Shown: positions 15,001 through 21,000, numbered from the whole stretch's first letter. The stretch: 63,974 bases of DNA, filler included, from GCA_964501035.1; 5 parts of 5 records of this genome joined end to end with filler, not necessarily neighbours in it; one strand, 5' to 3'. Made by a program: the numbers.

Positions 15001-18000
15001 TGCTATGCTTTTTGGTTTTCTTTAAGGTAATGGAATCACTCAGATTTTGTGTTTCACCATTGATGCGTACACGAACAAATCCTTCCCGAGCAATGGATGC
15101 AAGAACGTCCTTAAATGTTCCTTTTTTTTGCCGTACTACCGGGGCAAGCACTTGGAATTTTACGCCATCTTCCATGGTCATTATTTTATCGACGATTTGT
15201 TGGACAGTTTGTTTTTTAACTTCACCCTTACACTTATGACACTTCTGTTTACCAATACGTGCATATAACAGTCGTAGATAATCATAAATTTCTGTAATTG
15301 TACCAACGGTTGAACGGGGATTTCGGCTGGTTGATTTCTGCTCTATGGATATGGCTGGAGACAATCCTTCAATATTGTCCACATCCGGTTTTTCCATTAT
15401 ACCCAAAAATTGACGAGCATAGGCAGATAGGGATTCCACATATCGTCGTTGACCCTCGGCATATATGGTGTCAAATGCAAGTGACGATTTACCCGAACCA
15501 GACAGACCAGTAATCACCACCATTTGATTGCGAGGAATTTCTAAATCAATATTTTTTAAGTTATGCTCTCGAGCACCCTTTACAACCAACTTGGCTTGGC
15601 TTGCTGATAATGTCGTAATTTTGCGTTTCATAAGTAACCCAAAAAGTACAGACTTTTTGAATGCATGCAAAGCATTATTTGTGAAATTTNNNNNNNNNNN
15701 NNNNNNNNNNNNNNNNNNNNNNNNNNNNNNNNNTTAATTAATTAANNNNNNNNNNNNNNNNNNNNNNNNNNNNNNNNNNNNNNNNNNNNAAATTAATGGA
15801 TGTTATGATAATGTAGTAGGATTTCCGTTATCAAAATTCTTTGACACATTAACACAACTTGATATTCAAAAAAATTTTATAAAACAAACTAATTAGTTTT
15901 TAATCATCAAATTCTTCTAATTGTTTTTCAATTTCCAATAATTCTTCATCGCTTGGTTCAAATAATTCATATTTTTCATCATCATGCAACATGTTAATCT
16001 CCAATAATTAATCTTAAGGATTTTATTGCCTATTTAATAATGAATTTGTGATGCAAGTAGTATTTTTTCAAATCAAAAATTAAATGTGATTTGGCTTACA
16101 AAATTGAAAATTATAACAATCAAGATAAATCAATTTTCAATAGATAAATTCTTGTTATCAATTGCAAGAAATAGCTAATTTGACCCCTTATGAATTCTAC
16201 AGAAACATTCTTCAATGCATTAAAAGCTCACCGAGAAAGCAAGGATATCAAAATTGAAGATATATCCGAAGCAACACGCATAAACCCAAAATATTTTGAG
16301 GCAATAGAGACTGGCGATTTTACAGTGCTTCCAGCTGTATACATGCGATTGTTTTTACGGTCTTATGCCAACCATATCGGAGCAGATTCTGAAAAGGCAC
16401 TTGAAGATTACGAATTACACACAACTGGACAAGTAATCCAAAAAACGGATGAACCACGCCCATCAGTTTTAAAGGATGATGAAGAAACTGAGGAAATTGA
16501 GTTTAGTCCTGATTTTCAAATAACTCCACAAAAAATAGCAACCGCTGTTGGGGCAATCTTACTCATATTTTTATTTTTTAAACTCGTTGGATCATTAACA
16601 TCTGAACAAGAATTAGATACAAAAGCTGTTCAGCCTGTTGAGGTTGTTGAACAGGAAAATGTTGATGACTCAACGTTAAATGATGTTGAACCTGAAGTTC
16701 AGTATTCAACAATTCCCAATAATAACCTACTTAATGAATCTAACTTTCTTGAAAGCAACTTAGTACATTCAAGGGATGATGTTTATAATTTTAATCCACC
16801 TTTTGAAGTTGAAATTCAAACGCTTACACAAACAAAAATTAATCTAAGCCATGGGGATATAGATAATCTAAAATCTTTGTTTAATGGAATTGTTCAAGCA
16901 GATACTACATTGTCATTTCAATTTGATTCTGTACTTTATTTTGACTTGTGGAGTGGACAACATATTAATTTACTAATTAATGAAAATCAGATTGAGAATT
17001 TAACAGATGATACAACTGTTCGTGGATCTTATGATTCTAAAAATTCACAGATGTCTTTAAAGTTTTATAAACATTAATTTTAGTTTAAATTGTTAACATA
17101 TTAACTGTTAACGATTGACATTTTTTACAATATTATTGAAGGAATTCGGTGTAAATCCGAAGCTGACGCGCAACTGTAAAACTACTTTTGGTAGTTGAGC
17201 CAGATACTTCACATTTTCAACACCTTCGCGATTATGAGGTTCGATGATTCAAAATAATTTCATCACCCCTATCTTCAACAAGATGGGGGTTTTTCTTTTA
17301 GCAGGATTAGTTTCAATACTATCAGCACATAGTATTCAGGGAGTTATTCTAGATGAAATTACACAAAGACCGCTTCAAAACTACCCACTCGTTGTTAACA
17401 AAAAGCATTGTGAAACAGACTCCTTAGGTTATTTTTTTGTTGACGTTAATGAAACCATTGACACGGTCTCATTGTCAGCACCAAATTATTATTCTAAAAC
17501 TATCTCCGTTCAAAGTATAAAACAATTCATATTTCTAACTCCATTTTCATATCCTGAAAAGTCAATATTAGTTACTGGGGAATACAAAGGATTTTACAAT
17601 CATTTAGATGTTATCACGCCGCCTACCACATTAAGTCCAATTTCCATTCAATCTTCAAATTCGACTCAACAAATTTTCAACAGACTTCCTGGGGTAATAG
17701 TTAAATCTTATGGAGGCAGTGCTGGCGTTTCTACATTATCATTTCATGGAGGTCAAGGAAACAGAATTGCTGTTTTGCTAAATGGATTTAAACTAAATAA
17801 TGACCAGAATGGAAGCACGGATATTTCTCAAATTCCATCAGTATTAATGGAAAATATAGAATTTATTCCACAAGGTTCGTCATCCATTTATGGTTCCTCA
17901 GCAAATACAGGTGTCATTAATATTCTGCCAAACCATTCACCCTTTTCTTTCTCACTTTCACTACGAAAAAATCATGTTAATATTTCTCATTTTATGCAAT

Positions 18001-21000
18001 TAAAAAATCAAAATGTGATTGGTGGATTCGGGATTGGCAAACAAAGAACACATGACTCGTATTCATACACTGAAACTGGAAATTACAATAATGTGGACCA
18101 AACATGGGGAAATTATGACTGGCTCAAAAGTAATTTAAATCAACATTTTATCTATGGATGGGTAGATTATAAAATCAAACAGAACTTTATTGTTTCATCT
18201 CAACTCTTGCATTCTGAAAATGAACGAATAACTTCAGGATTCATATATAATAATCCAGCATTTTACCCCGAGTTAAATGACAATATATCCATTTTTTCAA
18301 CATCAATTACTGCTTCAAAAATCAAATACAATTTTGGATTAAAAAAAATTGAAATGGATTACAATTCCAATTCACCTAACCATCTTAATGTAGGTTCACA
18401 TCATACTTTAGAAAATGTTAACCACCAAATTATATTTGATTGTTCGGAATTCAAGTTGCAATCTGATATTGATATATCAAAAAGTAAAAGTACGGATGCA
18501 AAAAATGCATCGAGAGTAGGCAATACTACGTCATTGCATTATGTAAATAGTTGGGGTTGGGGAACTGTTGGGGTATCCATTCTGCAGGATATTCAGAAAA
18601 GTAAGACACCAGTTTCATCGTATGAACTTTATTATAGTTTTCCCGAATTTTCCCATGTTTCATCATCATTTACGTATTCCAAAAATTATAAAAAACCAAA
18701 TTTAAATGACTTATTCTGGAATACATTGGGAAATCCAAACTTAGAACCCGAATTTTCATTCAATTATTATTGGAAAAATAAATGGTCATCAAACAAAATT
18801 AGTCTTCAAGCTGATTTTTACTTCATCGAATACGACAATTTGATAAAATGGACACCTCAAATCAATGCTTCAGGGTTATGGAAACCAAGTAATATTTCTA
18901 AAGCACAAATAGCTGGATATCACGTGGTTTTGGATATATCAGAATCATTTTATTTCTCATTTGATAATAGTTTTTCAACTGATTTATCAGATGTTTTAGA
19001 GAGGTCATTACTTTATACACCAGAAAAAATTATCACCACTAATTATACAAAAGATTTTAACAACTTTACACTTTCAATTCATGGTAAATATACTTCATCA
19101 CGACTAAGACAATATGGCGCAATTCCGTTACCATCATATACTACAATTGATGTATCATTCATTAAAATGATACATTTTAAAAACAGTACATTAGAAACAA
19201 AATTTGAAATAAATAATATTAACAACACCCAATTCCAATCTGTGTTCGGATATCCAAATCCAGGTAGACAGGTTTTACTAACATTCAAAATAAAAGGAGT
19301 TGGAAAATAAAATGAAACCAATAATTAGCATACTTACATTTACTCTTTCTTTAATATTTGCAGATGTAACAACATTTGTATTGTGCGAGGGGAATTATGC
19401 ATCTAGCAATGCAAGCTTATGGACAATTAACGATGGAATCATCCAAGAAGCACCCGGAAATCCAGTGGGTGACACAGGGCAATCATTAACAGTGTTTGAT
19501 GACCAACTTTTTGTTATAAATAATGGGAGTAGCAATATAGAAGTATATGACATTGTTGAAGGCGAATTATTTTTCACAACGTCAATTTCTACGAACTTTT
19601 CAGGTCCACGTGAAATGGAAATTTATAATGGATTTGGATACATCACAGAATGGTACACAAATCAAATTGCAATCCTAAATTTAGACACATATGAATTCAT
19701 CAGCGGAATTCCTGTAGAGGGTATGCCCGAAGATATTGTTGCATATGATAGCTATTTGTTTGCATCCATTACAATGGATGCTGATTGGTCTTCATCAAAC
19801 AAAGTGGTAAAAATTGACCCAAACACCAATAGCATCATTGAAACCTATATTGTTGGTGATGGTCCAGGACAAATAGTCATTCATGACAATACGTTGTTTA
19901 CAGCTTGTACTTACTATGATATCAATTGGAATGGTTATGCTGGTACATCATCTATTGACTTGCTAACAGGTGAAGTTACCATCGCTGATTATGGAATCAC
20001 CTATTCGTACGGGGCAGATTTAACGGTTTTAGATGGACATATTTACCGTACATACAATAATGGGGTCATTCAATTGGATGATAATTTAGAAGTTAAAGAA
20101 GACACACATATTTATGGAGATTTTTCAGGTGTGTATTCTATGGCAAGTTTTGATGGACTCATTTATTTAGGAATCACAGACTACGTTGCCCCAGATGATG
20201 TGATTGTAATTGACTACTTCACCGAAGAAATTATTGACACATATTCAGTGGGTGCGATACCCGGATCATTTGCATTTTGGGAAAACGCATGTGCGACTGG
20301 ACTCATGGCTGATGTAAATCAAGATGGTGAAATTAACGTGCTTGATATAATCAATCTTGTCAATCATATTATTGGAACAGATATGTTTGATGATGACGTA
20401 TTCTGCCTTTCTGATATAAATGAAGATGGTATCATAAATGTTCTAGATATAGTTGGTATTGTTAATCTAATTCTAGGATAGATTAGTCGTTAAATAACCA
20501 AATGACTTCCAAATAATTTAACGACGCAATAGGAAGCAAATTAGTGGGCTGTTCAATAGGATTTTGCAGTATATTGGTCATTCTATAGGAAATTTGAAAC
20601 GATTTCAGGACAAAGCCAAACTCAAAATTTAACGAATGATTGATTAAATTATTTGCGATGGTATCATTATCATTCATCCCAAAAAGAGTCGAATTCACAT
20701 CAAAATCTAGAGAACGTAAGCCCCTATTACTCCAAAATATTCCATCACATTGTATGTATGGGCGAAATCGTTTTGTTTTCAATTGGGGTGAAATTTTGAG
20801 AGAAGATTGTGAATATCCGTTGAGCCAAATTTCATTGGAGCCAAATGCATCAAATGCTACAATCATACTTTGTAAAGATGCCCATGAATTTTCATATTCG
20901 GCAATCAATGACATTGATGGAATATTCTCGGATTCAAATTCAAGAAGTCGAATAGAAGGTGAAAATTTAAATGAATCATTTGAGTATTCAAGTTCTATTG

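What a model noticed while it worked through the whole genome (the two positions that open the first line are those of the whole stretch)
17098..20481. BtuG-type vitamin B12 capture protein outside the Bacteroidota, anchored by a dockerin instead of a lipid
Behind a cobalamin riboswitch (C39:1309-1440) lie btuB (g01120, TonB-dependent B12 transporter, 1494-3521) and, two bases further, g01121 (3523-4692, 389 aa, no Pfam or Swiss-Prot row): a seven-bladed beta-propeller that is a homologue of BtuG, the femtomolar B12-binding surface lipoprotein that caps BtuB in gut Bacteroides and was reported to exist only in that phylum. Here it has an ordinary signal peptide without a lipobox cysteine and ends in a type-I dockerin; its orthologues in other Marinimicrobia carry a T9SS C-terminal sorting domain at the same place. 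So the BtuBG capture system exists in this free-living marine phylum, with the anchor swapped.
Evidence so far: rna.tsv: Cobalamin riboswitch RF00174 39.9 bits; gene order call 9. phmmer vs PDB: 9 BtuG chains (8BMX, 8BMY, 8OKV, 8P97, 3DSM ...) E 2.7e-9 to 2.4e-8 over residues 22-320, and clostridial dockerins E 0.002-0.02 over 328-385; those entries are BtuG1-3 by the depositors' paper (PMC10404256, data-availability passage, call 133). AF2 model pLDDT 88.9, pTM 0.79; Foldseek vs PDB: ranks 1-16 all BtuG, best E 4.9e-19, TM 0.82, rmsd 2.7 A, 21% id. Own dockerin HMM E 4e-20 at 332-388. Relatives: the 6 closest (47-77% id) carry PF00404 dockerin, most of the next ~60 (36-54% id) carry PF18962 T9SS CTD, many with PF16819 (DUF5074). 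B12 users in the genome: methylmalonyl-CoA mutase g00178/g00973/g01157, [...]
(Added by a program. Inside this text positions count along the whole contig: they may not be those of the stretch shown here. "Call 12" and the like, gene names such as g00115 and contig names such as C1 are that model's own, and its searches are not shown. The text may have been shortened before it was handed on; [...] marks where a part breaks off. The agent that wrote the report below was given it as the finding of a first reader that could run no searches.)

Follow-up and report, generated by a model that had tools for sequence, protein, structure and literature searches.

The report
BtuG-like B12 catcher with dockerin tail
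A free-living marine bacterium of the Marinimicrobia carries the vitamin B12 capture pair BtuB-BtuG known from gut Bacteroides, but its BtuG ends in a dockerin plug instead of starting with a lipid anchor, and relatives in the same phylum swap between lipid, type IX secretion and dockerin anchors.

Summary
A cobalamin riboswitch at 17098-17229 is the only one in this 1.87 Mb genome. It precedes a BtuB-type TonB-dependent transporter. One base after that gene's stop comes a 389-aa protein at 19312-20481, made of a signal peptide, a seven-bladed propeller and a C-terminal dockerin. The propeller belongs specifically to the BtuG family. A family profile hits 12 BtuG chains in PDB at E 3e-37 to 5e-29, and the next propeller scores 1e-15. 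Foldseek ranks 1-16 are all BtuG. Seven of 13 BtuG2 ligand-contact positions are identical.

The order riboswitch-btuB-btuG recurs in 22 of 22 related loci scanned. The family occurs in 209 of 401 genomes of the phylum.

New here:
- Lipoprotein forms also exist in the phylum (13 of 31 loci), beside T9SS-tail forms (12) and dockerin forms (6). The anchor changed at least 9 times on the tree.
- The genome has 64 dockerin ORFs, mostly peptidases.
- It has three cohesin proteins, one carrying a T9SS sorting tail, so a surface socket for the dockerin exists.

B12 binding, lid formation and export across the outer membrane are not shown. Verdict: a new variant of a known kind, of moderate-to-high interest.

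The parts
17098..17229 (+). Cobalamin riboswitch aptamer (RF00174)
   Evidence: 39.9 bits against a gathering score of 31.5. It is the only RF00174 match in the genome. The same element lies upstream in 22 of 22 related loci scanned. The leader is 94% identical to L002, while the BtuB proteins are 64% identical.
17265..17290 (+). Hairpin of 11 pairs followed by a T run. Its 3' arm holds the ATG at 17283. It is the likely expression platform (start-codon sequestration and/or termination).
   Evidence: Terminator-like hit (2 found in the region against 1.3 expected, so weak on its own). The fold of 17225-17305 gives -20.6 kcal/mol, z -2.5. The hairpin is invariant in L002.
17283..19310 (+). btuB: TonB-dependent B12 transporter with an N-terminal carboxypeptidase-regulatory-like extension. 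An alternative upstream start lies at 17244.
   Evidence: Plug and barrel domains in Pfam. TIGR01779 and NF007926 are the best NCBIfam rows, under their cut-offs. The orthologue profile hits B. thetaiotaomicron BtuB1-3 and E. coli BtuB at E 9e-50 to 5e-40, the next hit at 3e-18, and a SusC N-terminal domain at profile positions 17-91.
19294..19299 (+). Shine-Dalgarno AAGGAG for the btuG-like gene, inside the end of btuB
   Evidence: Read directly from the sequence. The btuB stop is at 19308-19310 and the ATG at 19312.
19312..19362 (+). Signal peptide of the BtuG-like protein (aa 1-17, MKPIISILTFTLSLIFA), with no lipobox
   Evidence: Sequence. AF2 gives a helix at 2-14 and low confidence at 12-16, and the first propeller strand starts at 19. 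The cleavage site is my reading; no predictor was run.
19363..20283 (+). Seven-bladed BtuG-type beta-propeller (aa 18-324), the presumed corrinoid-binding module
   Evidence: Residue map.
20284..20478 (+). Short linker and type-I dockerin (aa 325-389). The two calcium loops are DVNQDGEINVLD (334-345) and DINEDGIINVLD (368-379).
   Evidence: Pfam PF00404, 23.9 bits. An HMM built from 41 other C-terminal dockerins of this genome scores E 1.4e-23, 75.9 bits, at 325-389, and none of 200 shuffled tails was reported. Helices at 343-353, 361-367 and 377-388.
20483..21991 (-). Context only: 502-aa protein that looks like a plugless outer-membrane barrel, convergent with the operon
   Evidence: No Pfam or PDB hit. 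Atlas look-alikes are named TonB-receptor-like barrel or Porin_10. It is present downstream of btuG only in the 6 dockerin-type loci.
21992..22507 (-). Context only: DUF6580 membrane protein with an ECF S-component-like fold. It is a candidate solitary vitamin transporter whose substrate is unknown.
   Evidence: PF20221 at E 1.3e-51. Atlas name: ECF transporter S component. AF2 pLDDT 80. The best Foldseek rows are FolT, ThiT and BtuM, all with E >= 0.25. It is present only in the 6 dockerin-type loci.

Best explanation
g01121 is an orthologue of BtuG, the corrinoid-capturing propeller that works with the outer-membrane transporter BtuB.

Proposed mechanism:
- When B12 is scarce, the riboswitch lets the two-gene operon be expressed.
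- BtuB inserts in the outer membrane.
- The propeller binds corrinoids on the face that carries E26, Y29, Q57, N71, W159, S160, Y202 and Y291, and hands them to BtuB.

What differs is the tether. The protein has no N-terminal lipid. It has a C-terminal dockerin of the same type as about 48 other secreted proteins of this genome. This dockerin most likely plugs into one of the genome's cohesins. One of those is a 251-aa protein made of a signal peptide, a cohesin and a T9SS sorting tail, which would be fixed to the cell surface by the type IX system.

Shown: homology, fold, gene order, riboswitch, conservation of contact residues, and the presence of dockerin, cohesins and T9SS parts.

Inferred: B12 binding, delivery to BtuB, dockerin-cohesin binding, and surface location.

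Unknown: how a dockerin-only protein crosses the outer membrane.

The confidence given is for the whole statement. Taken apart, I put about 0.85 on 'BtuG-family protein with a B12-uptake role beside BtuB' and about 0.5 on 'held at the surface through dockerin-cohesin binding'.
For: Family.
- The profile of 29 relatives hits 12 BtuG sequences in PDB at E 3.3e-37 to 4.7e-29. The next hit, an archaeal YVTN propeller, scores 1e-15.
- Foldseek ranks 1-16 are all BtuG, and a gap follows.

Context.
- A BtuB-like gene ends just upstream in 28 of 31 related loci; the other 3 are cut by a contig end.
- RF00174 lies upstream in 22 of 22 loci scanned.
- The transporter profile is BtuB-specific.

Need for B12.
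- The genome has two methylmalonyl-CoA mutase genes and a B12-binding domain gene.
- No CobS and no CbiB were found. The genome is 95.7% complete.

Contact residues. I took the BtuG2 residues from paper passages and mapped them through the printed HMMER alignment to chain 8bmx_D.
- Identical, 7 of 13: E55, Q93, N107, W194, S195, Y239, Y335.
- Aromatic for aromatic, 2: F58->Y, W272->Y.
- Different, 4.
- Overall identity is only 20-22%.
- In 60 family representatives these 13 columns are more conserved than the propeller average (0.58 against 0.38). Only 157 of 20000 random 13-site sets reach that value.
- B. thetaiotaomicron BtuG1 shares only about 60% of BtuG2's contacts and still binds at picomolar affinity (preprint 10.1101/2024.02.16.580637, passages).

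Tether.
- The dockerin matches the genome's own dockerin HMM at E 1.4e-23.
- There are 64 dockerin ORFs. In 48 the dockerin lies within 15 aa of the C-terminus and there is no T9SS tail.
- Three ORFs hold cohesin modules, one of them cohesin plus Por_Secre_tail.
- SprA and 38 T9SS-tail matches are present.
- Orthologues carry a T9SS tail or a lipobox instead of the dockerin, so the family is surface-tethered in all three forms.
- BtuG1 of B. thetaiotaomicron caps BtuB1 while carrying a C-terminal extension of about 250 residues (PMC10404256, passage). A C-terminal add-on is therefore compatible with lid function.
Against: - No binding data exist.
- Four of 13 mapped contact positions differ: S131->G, Y196->S, Q219->G, Y316->S.
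- The C-terminal half of the residue map rests on low-confidence alignment columns. No structural superposition was possible.
- Pfam's DUF5074 model does not reach its cut-off on this protein.
- The N-terminal linker, which in BtuG2 is held by BtuB loops and acts as the lid hinge (PMC10404256, passage), is absent. The mature protein starts directly with the first strand.
- No known route takes a protein with only a Sec signal and a dockerin across a diderm outer membrane.
- Cohesins and dockerins are just as common in relatives whose BtuG is a lipoprotein. Their presence does not by itself tie this dockerin to a given cohesin.
- No BtuCD-type inner-membrane importer was found, so the rest of the uptake path is unexplained.
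Confidence: 0.6

Rival explanations
1. It binds B12 but is not a lid. Held on a cohesin scaffold away from BtuB, or released, it would act as an extracellular corrinoid reservoir or shuttle, like the accessory binders BtuH and BtuJ of Bacteroides.
For: - The hinge linker of BtuG2 is missing.
- The dockerin would fix the protein to another protein and not to the membrane beside BtuB.
- The genome has a scaffoldin-like protein of at least 2177 aa with cohesin modules, and an adaptor made of cohesin, LRR and dockerin.
- Reservoir-type B12 binders are described in Bacteroides (listing and abstract starts; PMC13616437, passages).
Against: - The gene is coupled to btuB with a one-base gap.
- The pair is conserved in 28 of 31 loci whatever the anchor.
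- The BtuB2-BtuG2 interface is large (3463 square angstroms, about 40 hydrogen bonds) and is formed mostly by the propeller itself (PMC10404256, passage).
- A small T9SS-anchored cohesin would be mobile in the outer leaflet, like a lipid anchor.
Confidence: 0.2
2. It stays in the periplasm and serves as the periplasmic B12-binding protein, standing in for the missing BtuF.
For: - It has only a Sec-type signal peptide and no recognised outer-membrane export signal.
- No FecCD/BtuC family gene was found in the genome, which is 95.7% complete.
Against: - Orthologues of 36-54% identity have T9SS tails or lipoboxes followed by acidic residues, which are marks of surface proteins.
- The same dockerin sits on 48 secreted proteins, among them gingipain-like, subtilase and M14 peptidases and nucleases, which make sense outside the cell.
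- One cohesin has a T9SS tail.
Confidence: 0.08
3. It is a generic YVTN/YncE-type propeller with a role unrelated to B12. The likeness to BtuG would then reflect only the shared fold.
For: - The Pfam DUF5074 model also rings in E. coli, B. subtilis and M. acetivorans in the control genomes.
- Sequence identity to BtuG is 20-22%.
Against: - BtuG chains outscore every other propeller by more than 13 orders of magnitude with the family profile.
- There is a clean gap in Foldseek.
- The gene sits behind the genome's only cobalamin riboswitch, and this holds in 22 of 22 loci.
- Contact residues are preferentially conserved.
Confidence: 0.04

Closest known systems
BtuG2 (BT1954) and BtuG3 (BT2095) of Bacteroides thetaiotaomicron, surface lipoproteins that cap BtuB
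   Same: - Seven-bladed propeller.
- Best sequence and fold matches.
- Gene directly after btuB, behind a cobalamin riboswitch.
- The conserved E, Q, N, W-S and Y contact residues.
   Different: - No lipobox, no lipoprotein export signal and no N-terminal hinge linker.
- A C-terminal dockerin.
- 20-22% identity.
- Four of 13 contact positions changed.
- A free-living marine host of another phylum.
BtuG1/BtuGH (BT1490) of B. thetaiotaomicron
   Same: A BtuG propeller that carries an extra C-terminal module and still caps its BtuB (PMC10404256, passage).
   Different: Its extra module is a second B12-binding (BtuH) domain, and the protein is still lipid-anchored. Here the module is a docking domain and there is no lipid.
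Type-I dockerin-cohesin pairs of clostridial cellulosomes
   Same: Pfam PF00404 over its cut-off, a duplicated calcium-loop-plus-helix segment, PDB hits to clostridial dockerins, and cohesin modules in the same genome.
   Different: The host is a diderm with T9SS. The cargo is a nutrient-capture propeller and mostly peptidases, not glycoside hydrolases. One cohesin is anchored by a T9SS tail, not by SLH or sortase.
Cellulosome-like system proposed for Ca. Stygibacter (Cloacimonadota) MAGs (PMC8542988)
   Same: An FCB-group diderm with signal-peptide enzymes that bear C-terminal dockerins (including S8 and C25 peptidases), and a cohesin scaffoldin with a T9SS C-terminal domain for surface attachment (passages).
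   Different: That report lists no transporter partner or vitamin binder among the cargo. It concerns another phylum and is also only a genomic inference.
E. coli YncE and archaeal YVTN surface-layer propellers (1L0Q)
   Same: The same broad propeller superfamily.
   Different: Much weaker matches (1e-15 against 1e-37), and no B12 operon context.

Membership tests
BtuG (B12-capturing partner of BtuB; Pfam DUF5074 / NCBI 'YncE family') | Seven-bladed beta-propeller that superposes on solved BtuG structures | tested here: met
   AF2 pLDDT 90.3. Foldseek ranks 1-16 are all BtuG: TM by target 0.72-0.83 for the 15 free or similar-length chains and 0.43 for the 626-residue BtuG1 chain 8blw_B, rmsd 2.7-4.1 A.
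BtuG (B12-capturing partner of BtuB; Pfam DUF5074 / NCBI 'YncE family') | Sequence homology to BtuG that is stronger than to other YVTN propellers | tested here: met
   The single sequence gives E 2.7e-9. The family profile gives 3.3e-37 to 4.7e-29 for 12 BtuG sequences, against 1e-15 for the next propeller.
BtuG (B12-capturing partner of BtuB; Pfam DUF5074 / NCBI 'YncE family') | Match to Pfam PF16819 over its gathering score | tested here: not met
   No row at E <= 0.01 in hmmscan. The six-frame search gives 19.5 bits against a cut-off of 27.2. Many relatives of 36-45% identity do carry PF16819.
BtuG (B12-capturing partner of BtuB; Pfam DUF5074 / NCBI 'YncE family') | Gene adjacent to btuB in an operon under a cobalamin riboswitch | tested here: met
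   for the window; 28 of 31 loci and 22 of 22 loci for relatives.
BtuG (B12-capturing partner of BtuB; Pfam DUF5074 / NCBI 'YncE family') | Corrin-contacting residues of BtuG2 conserved | tested here: inconclusive
   Seven of 13 are identical, 2 are aromatic swaps and 4 are different. Five of the 8 hydrogen-bonding residues are identical. The columns are more conserved than average. The map comes from sequence alignment only.
BtuG (B12-capturing partner of BtuB; Pfam DUF5074 / NCBI 'YncE family') | N-terminal lipobox cysteine with lipoprotein export signal (surface lipoprotein) | tested here: not met
   The N-terminus is MKPIISILTFTLSLIFA/DVTTFVLCEGN, and C25 is the propeller-motif cysteine. 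The feature is met in 12 of 31 orthologous loci, plus one N-truncated locus.
BtuG (B12-capturing partner of BtuB; Pfam DUF5074 / NCBI 'YncE family') | Binds cobalamin and cobinamide with very high affinity | not testable with these tools
   This needs purified protein.
BtuG (B12-capturing partner of BtuB; Pfam DUF5074 / NCBI 'YncE family') | Forms a stable lid complex on BtuB | not testable with these tools
   No experimental or reliable computed complex is available (see Tried and rejected).
Type-I dockerin (PF00404) | Match over Pfam's gathering score | tested here: met
   23.9 bits against 22.9. In the genome search, 32.7 bits with its neighbours in the frame.
Type-I dockerin (PF00404) | Duplicated 12-residue calcium loop followed by a helix | tested here: met
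   Loops at D334-D345 and D368-D379 are read in the sequence, with helices after each. The loop consensus itself is recalled, not taken from a call.
Type-I dockerin (PF00404) | A cohesin partner encoded by the same organism | tested here: met
   Four PF00963 matches in 3 ORFs, with domains confirmed. Which one binds this dockerin is unknown.
Type-I dockerin (PF00404) | Calcium-dependent binding to cohesin | not testable with these tools

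The most novel reading that the evidence does not exclude
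In four families of this Marinimicrobia order the dockerin would have become a general surface-display tag of a diderm. Dozens of typical T9SS cargo types (gingipain-like, subtilase and M14 peptidases, a Porphyromonas-type arginine deiminase, nucleases) and even a transporter lid carry a dockerin where relatives carry a T9SS tail or a lipid. These proteins would cross the outer membrane already docked to small cohesin-T9SS-tail carrier proteins, piggy-backing through the type IX translocon. They would end up plugged into sockets anchored in the outer leaflet. BtuG would then be an exchangeable, non-covalently held lid of a TonB-dependent transporter.
Probability: 0.2. Interest if true: 0.85.

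Novelty: new variant of a known kind. Interest (0 to 1): 0.64.

Why it matters
BtuG is treated in the literature as an invention of Bacteroidetes and as a lipoprotein. The 2018 paper says so, and a 2024 preprint repeats 'present exclusively in Bacteroidetes' (passages).

Here the BtuB-BtuG pair turns out to be a common trait of an abundant, mostly uncultured marine phylum that needs B12 and does not make it. That bears on who competes for B12 in the ocean.

The repeated exchange of lipid, T9SS and dockerin anchors on one conserved propeller is a natural experiment. It asks what a transporter lid needs from its tether.

The dockerin form also points to a large cohesin-dockerin surface system in a small diderm genome. 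Its export route is an open question.

Tried and rejected
- Complex prediction of BtuB (100-688) with the propeller (18-326), each with its alignment, gave no verdict (score 0.00). It counts neither for nor against binding.
- Sequencing runs: no RNA holder is listed, so nothing can be said on expression.
- The search for related loci with the 29-row alignment failed because it had no conserved stretch. A 13-row alignment worked, but its single pattern ([YF]x[VT]GAIPG[SD]F) reaches only this clade. That scan therefore says nothing about other phyla.
- One Rfam call was over the size limit and was re-sent with fewer loci. Nine loci were not scanned for the riboswitch: L011, L014, L016, L017, L021, L023, L030, L031 and L032. 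Several of them lack upstream DNA.
- I could not obtain BT1954 as a stored sequence or any coordinates. The residue map was therefore read from printed HMMER alignments and was not checked by superposition.
- DUF6580 and the 502-aa neighbour have no PDB sequence hits. The Foldseek rows for DUF6580 all have E >= 0.25. The idea that DUF6580 is the missing inner-membrane B12 importer stays a lead only.
- I considered that dockerin-rich genomes might explain the dockerin form of BtuG. This is rejected as a sufficient cause, because relatives with a lipoprotein BtuG have as many dockerins and cohesins.
- I considered C25 as a lipobox cysteine. This is rejected, because it is the conserved LCEGN cysteine, which is also present in orthologues that have a separate lipobox upstream.
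This is the same report with that field filled in.

Full report
WHAT IS THERE. The window is several contigs joined by N spacers, and the contig with the finding starts at 15790. A cobalamin riboswitch aptamer (RF00174, 39.9 bits, gathering score 31.5) lies at 17098-17229. It is the only one in the 1.87 Mb, 95.7%-complete genome. Next comes an 11-pair hairpin with a T run at 17265-17290, whose 3' arm holds the ATG at 17283. The whole leader is 94% identical to that of the nearest relative, L002, although the encoded BtuB proteins are only 64% identical. The leader is therefore under its own constraint.

THE TRANSPORTER. The ORF to 19310 is a TonB-dependent transporter with Plug and barrel domains. 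A profile of 16 orthologues hits B. thetaiotaomicron BtuB2, BtuB3 and BtuB1 and E. coli BtuB at E 9e-50 to 5.4e-40. The next transporter scores 3.2e-18. After its TAA (19308-19310) and one base, behind an AAGGAG, g01121 starts at 19312.

THE PROTEIN. It has 389 aa.
- Signal peptide: MKPIISILTFTLSLIFA.
- Propeller: it starts at once with DVTTFVLCEGN.
- Linker: 8-10 residues.
- Dockerin: two calcium loops, D334-D345 and D368-D379.

Pfam reports Dockerin_1 just over its cut-off. An HMM that I built from 41 other C-terminal dockerins of this genome scores it at E 1.4e-23, and none of 200 shuffled tails was reported.

The propeller is BtuG-like by every test I could run.
- phmmer against PDB gives nine BtuG sequences at about 3e-9.
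- The family profile gives 12 BtuG sequences at 3.3e-37 to 4.7e-29, and the next propeller scores 1e-15.
- The AF2 model (pLDDT 90.3) finds only BtuG1/2/3 in Foldseek ranks 1-16. The target-normalised TM is 0.72-0.83 for 15 of these rows and 0.43 for the 626-residue BtuG1 chain 8blw_B. A gap follows.

BINDING RESIDUES. I took the BtuG2 ligand residues from paper passages.
- Hydrogen bonds: S131, N107, E55, Q93, S195, Q219, Y196, Y239 (PMC13616437).
- Cavity: W194, W272, Y316, Y335 (PMC10404256).
- F58 stacking on the lower ligand, and W272 (preprint 10.1101/2024.02.16.580637).

Chain 8bmx_D is numbered like the native protein, since M33 follows the lipid cysteine C32. The printed alignment therefore maps them as follows.

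| BtuG2 | g01121 |
|---|---|
| E55 | E26 |
| F58 | Y29 |
| Q93 | Q57 |
| N107 | N71 |
| S131 | G98 (S97 beside it) |
| W194 | W159 |
| S195 | S160 |
| Y196 | S161 |
| Q219 | G184 (Q187 three residues on) |
| Y239 | Y202 |
| W272 | Y233 |
| Y316 | S272 (F271 beside it) |
| Y335 | Y291 |

That makes 7 identical positions, 2 aromatic swaps and 4 changes, against 20-22% identity overall. In 60 representatives of the family these 13 columns are more conserved than the propeller as a whole (0.58 against 0.38). Only 157 of 20000 random 13-site sets reach that value. The family majority at the S131 column is serine, in 33 of 60. The second half of the map rests on weakly aligned columns, and no superposition was possible.

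RELATIVES.
- The word-based search found 129 proteins. The six closest have dockerins, and most of the next have T9SS tails.
- The exhaustive search counts 3517 representative clusters at E <= 0.001 (some through the dockerin alone), 216 at <= 1e-10 and 70 at <= 1e-30.
- In one genome per species, 31 loci were fetched. By their record titles they are Marinimicrobia / Neomarinimicrobiota / Fidelibacterota / 'FCB group' or unnamed MAGs.
- A BtuB-like gene ends just upstream in 28 of the 31. The other three are cut by the contig end.
- RF00174 lies upstream in 22 of 22 loci scanned.
- With the family profile, 209 of 401 genomes sampled from the phylum have a match at E <= 1e-10. That is 113 of 190 good-quality genomes and 78 of 114 genera. 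One family of about 1 Mb genomes has 0 of 37.
- More distant hits (E 1e-13 to 1e-20) are lipoproteins with acidic stretches after the cysteine.
  - One of them, P0217, sits among DUF5074 proteins that are Bacteroidota wherever a source names the organism.
  - Another cluster is annotated DUF5074/YncE in Ca. Kryptobacter, which NCBI places in the separate FCB phylum Kryptoniota.

ANCHORS. I read the ends of the 31 orthologues.
- Six have a 70-71 aa dockerin tail.
- Twelve have a 102-112 aa T9SS tail.
- Twelve have a cysteine at the end of the signal peptide's hydrophobic stretch, followed by acidic residues, and only 5-8 residues after the propeller.
- One more, cut at its N-terminus, has the same short tail.

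My lipobox pattern flagged only 6 of the 12. The rest I read by eye. One metagenome protein (P0019) has both a lipobox and a T9SS tail.

I built a maximum-likelihood tree of 43 propellers: 28 loci, the window and 14 proteins. I left out L021, L023 and L032 as incomplete. P0011, P0020, P0033 and P0045 dropped out because my end motifs failed on them. The tree needs at least 9 anchor changes, where 3 is the minimum possible. Shuffled labels give a mean of 19.9. The dockerin forms lie in one well-supported 18-row clade together with 6 T9SS and 2 lipoprotein forms, and a single origin of the dockerin form is not excluded.

IS THERE A SOCKET? The genome has 67 dockerin matches in 64 ORFs.
- In 48 ORFs the dockerin is within 15 aa of the C-terminus and there is no T9SS tail. 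Most of these have a plain signal peptide.
- In 10 ORFs a T9SS tail follows 160-215 aa after the dockerin.

Of 40 dockerin ORFs scanned, 15 hold peptidase domains: S8 x5, C25 x5, M14 x2, M1, M6 and C10. One more has a trypsin-like domain. One is a Porphyromonas-type arginine deiminase, 3 are nucleases or phosphatases and 2 are arylsulfotransferases. I recall these as cargo types that carry T9SS tails in Porphyromonas.

Cohesin modules occur in 3 ORFs:
- a 251-aa protein with a signal peptide, a cohesin (34-140) and a Por_Secre_tail (173-238);
- a 539-aa protein with cohesin, LRR and dockerin;
- a protein of at least 2177 aa with a signal peptide and cohesin modules, which runs off its contig.

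SprA is present, as are two secretins. In the order, 67 of 74 genomes have cohesins, with many small ORFs of about 245-272 aa. Fifty-nine of 74 genomes have dockerins at E <= 1e-6, tens per genome in four families and 1 of 16 genomes in the fifth. Both are just as common where BtuG is a lipoprotein.

A like system, with a T9SS-tailed cohesin scaffoldin and dockerin-tagged S8 and C25 peptidases, was proposed from Cloacimonadota MAGs (PMC8542988, passages).

NEED AND REST OF THE PATH. The genome has two methylmalonyl-CoA mutase genes and a small B12-binding protein. No CobS and no CbiB were found, which fits a B12 auxotroph. No FecCD/BtuC was found, so the inner-membrane step is open.

Convergent with the operon lie a 502-aa barrel-like protein and a DUF6580 protein with an ECF S-component-like fold. 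This is so only in the six dockerin-type loci. Their substrate is unknown.

HOW IT MOST LIKELY WORKS. Low B12 opens the riboswitch and both genes are translated. BtuB goes to the outer membrane. The propeller captures corrinoids and passes them to BtuB. It is held near the surface through its dockerin on a cohesin, most simply the small T9SS-anchored one.

In a closed propeller the two chain ends usually lie together (general knowledge, not checked on coordinates). A C-terminal tether should therefore leave from about the place where BtuG2's lipid linker leaves. BtuG1 shows that a C-terminal module is tolerated on a lid.

Not explained: how dockerin-only proteins cross the outer membrane. Piggy-back export on cohesin-T9SS carriers and a type II route are guesses.

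LITERATURE. I found no paper that holds BtuG together with Marinimicrobia, or Marinimicrobia together with dockerin.
- The one paper with BtuG and T9SS concerns the BAM complex, by its title.
- DUF5074 occurs in 2 unrelated papers, and DUF6580 in none.
- Of the 79 papers with 'BtuG' I saw the listing of 40. I read passages of PMC6143338, PMC10404256, PMC13616437 and the two preprints, and section 14 of 10.1101/2023.03.17.533168, which says that lid-transporter pairs with conserved proximity are almost all in Bacteroidota.
- I did not read any supplements.

VERDICT. The B12 role is strongly supported by context, and the dockerin tether is plausible but untested. This is a new variant of a known system. 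The wider value lies in the interchangeable anchors and in the cohesin-dockerin surface system of this marine lineage.

Noticed in passing
whole genome G000, e.g. G000:C29:10180-10935, C52:3106-4725, C9:2-6532 (outside the window): A 1.87 Mb diderm genome holds 64 dockerin ORFs and three cohesin proteins: one cohesin with a T9SS tail, one with cohesin, LRR and dockerin, and one scaffoldin-like protein of at least 2177 aa. The cargo is mostly peptidases (S8, C25 gingipain-like, M14, M1, M6, C10), plus an arginine deiminase and nucleases. Cohesins occur in 67 of 74 genomes of the order and dockerins in 59 of 74.
   Followed up: partly
window 20483-22507 (-): A pair made of a DUF6580 protein (ECF S-component-like fold) and a 502-aa barrel-like protein lies convergent with btuB-btuG, only in the six dockerin-type loci. 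The genome has no FecCD/BtuC gene, so this could be a vitamin uptake pair. No riboswitch precedes it.
   Followed up: partly
window 15690-15789: The window is a chain of contigs joined by runs of N around the word ttaattaattaa. Gene neighbourhoods must not be read across these joints.
   Followed up: yes
protein P0019 (metagenome); sister P0018: A BtuG-like protein has both a lipobox cysteine and a T9SS C-terminal domain. Its sister, at a branch length of 0.09, has only the lipobox. This may be an intermediate in an anchor change.
   Followed up: no
L032:4026-4965: The BtuG homologue of this species representative matches in two pieces in different frames (4026-4469 and 4471-4965), which suggests a frameshift or an assembly error.
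   Followed up: no
proteins P0157 (1134 aa), P0142 (576 aa); genome hits G017 (1137-aa frame), G336 (573), G330 (582): Some relatives have the BtuG-like propeller inside much longer proteins, with extra N- or C-terminal parts. G017 has two copies 2.3 kb apart.
   Followed up: no
phylum scan, family f7 / genus g29: None of 37 genomes of one family, with very small (about 1 Mb) and nearly complete genomes, has the BtuG-like gene, while 209 of 401 genomes in the phylum do.
   Followed up: no
protein P0260 and its cluster: RefSeq names a lipoprotein-type relative in Ca. Kryptobacter tengchongensis (NCBI phylum Ca. Kryptoniota, FCB group) as a DUF5074/YncE family protein. I did not check whether it sits in a B12 locus.
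   Followed up: no
proteins P0095, P0096 (384 aa): A second, only distantly related propeller (28% identity; Pfam PF21783) also ends in a dockerin of the same style.
   Followed up: no
window 19312-20481, residues C327 and C365: The dockerin-type BtuG tails of this clade keep two cysteines, one before each calcium loop. The genome's dockerin consensus lacks them, so they may form a disulfide.
   Followed up: no
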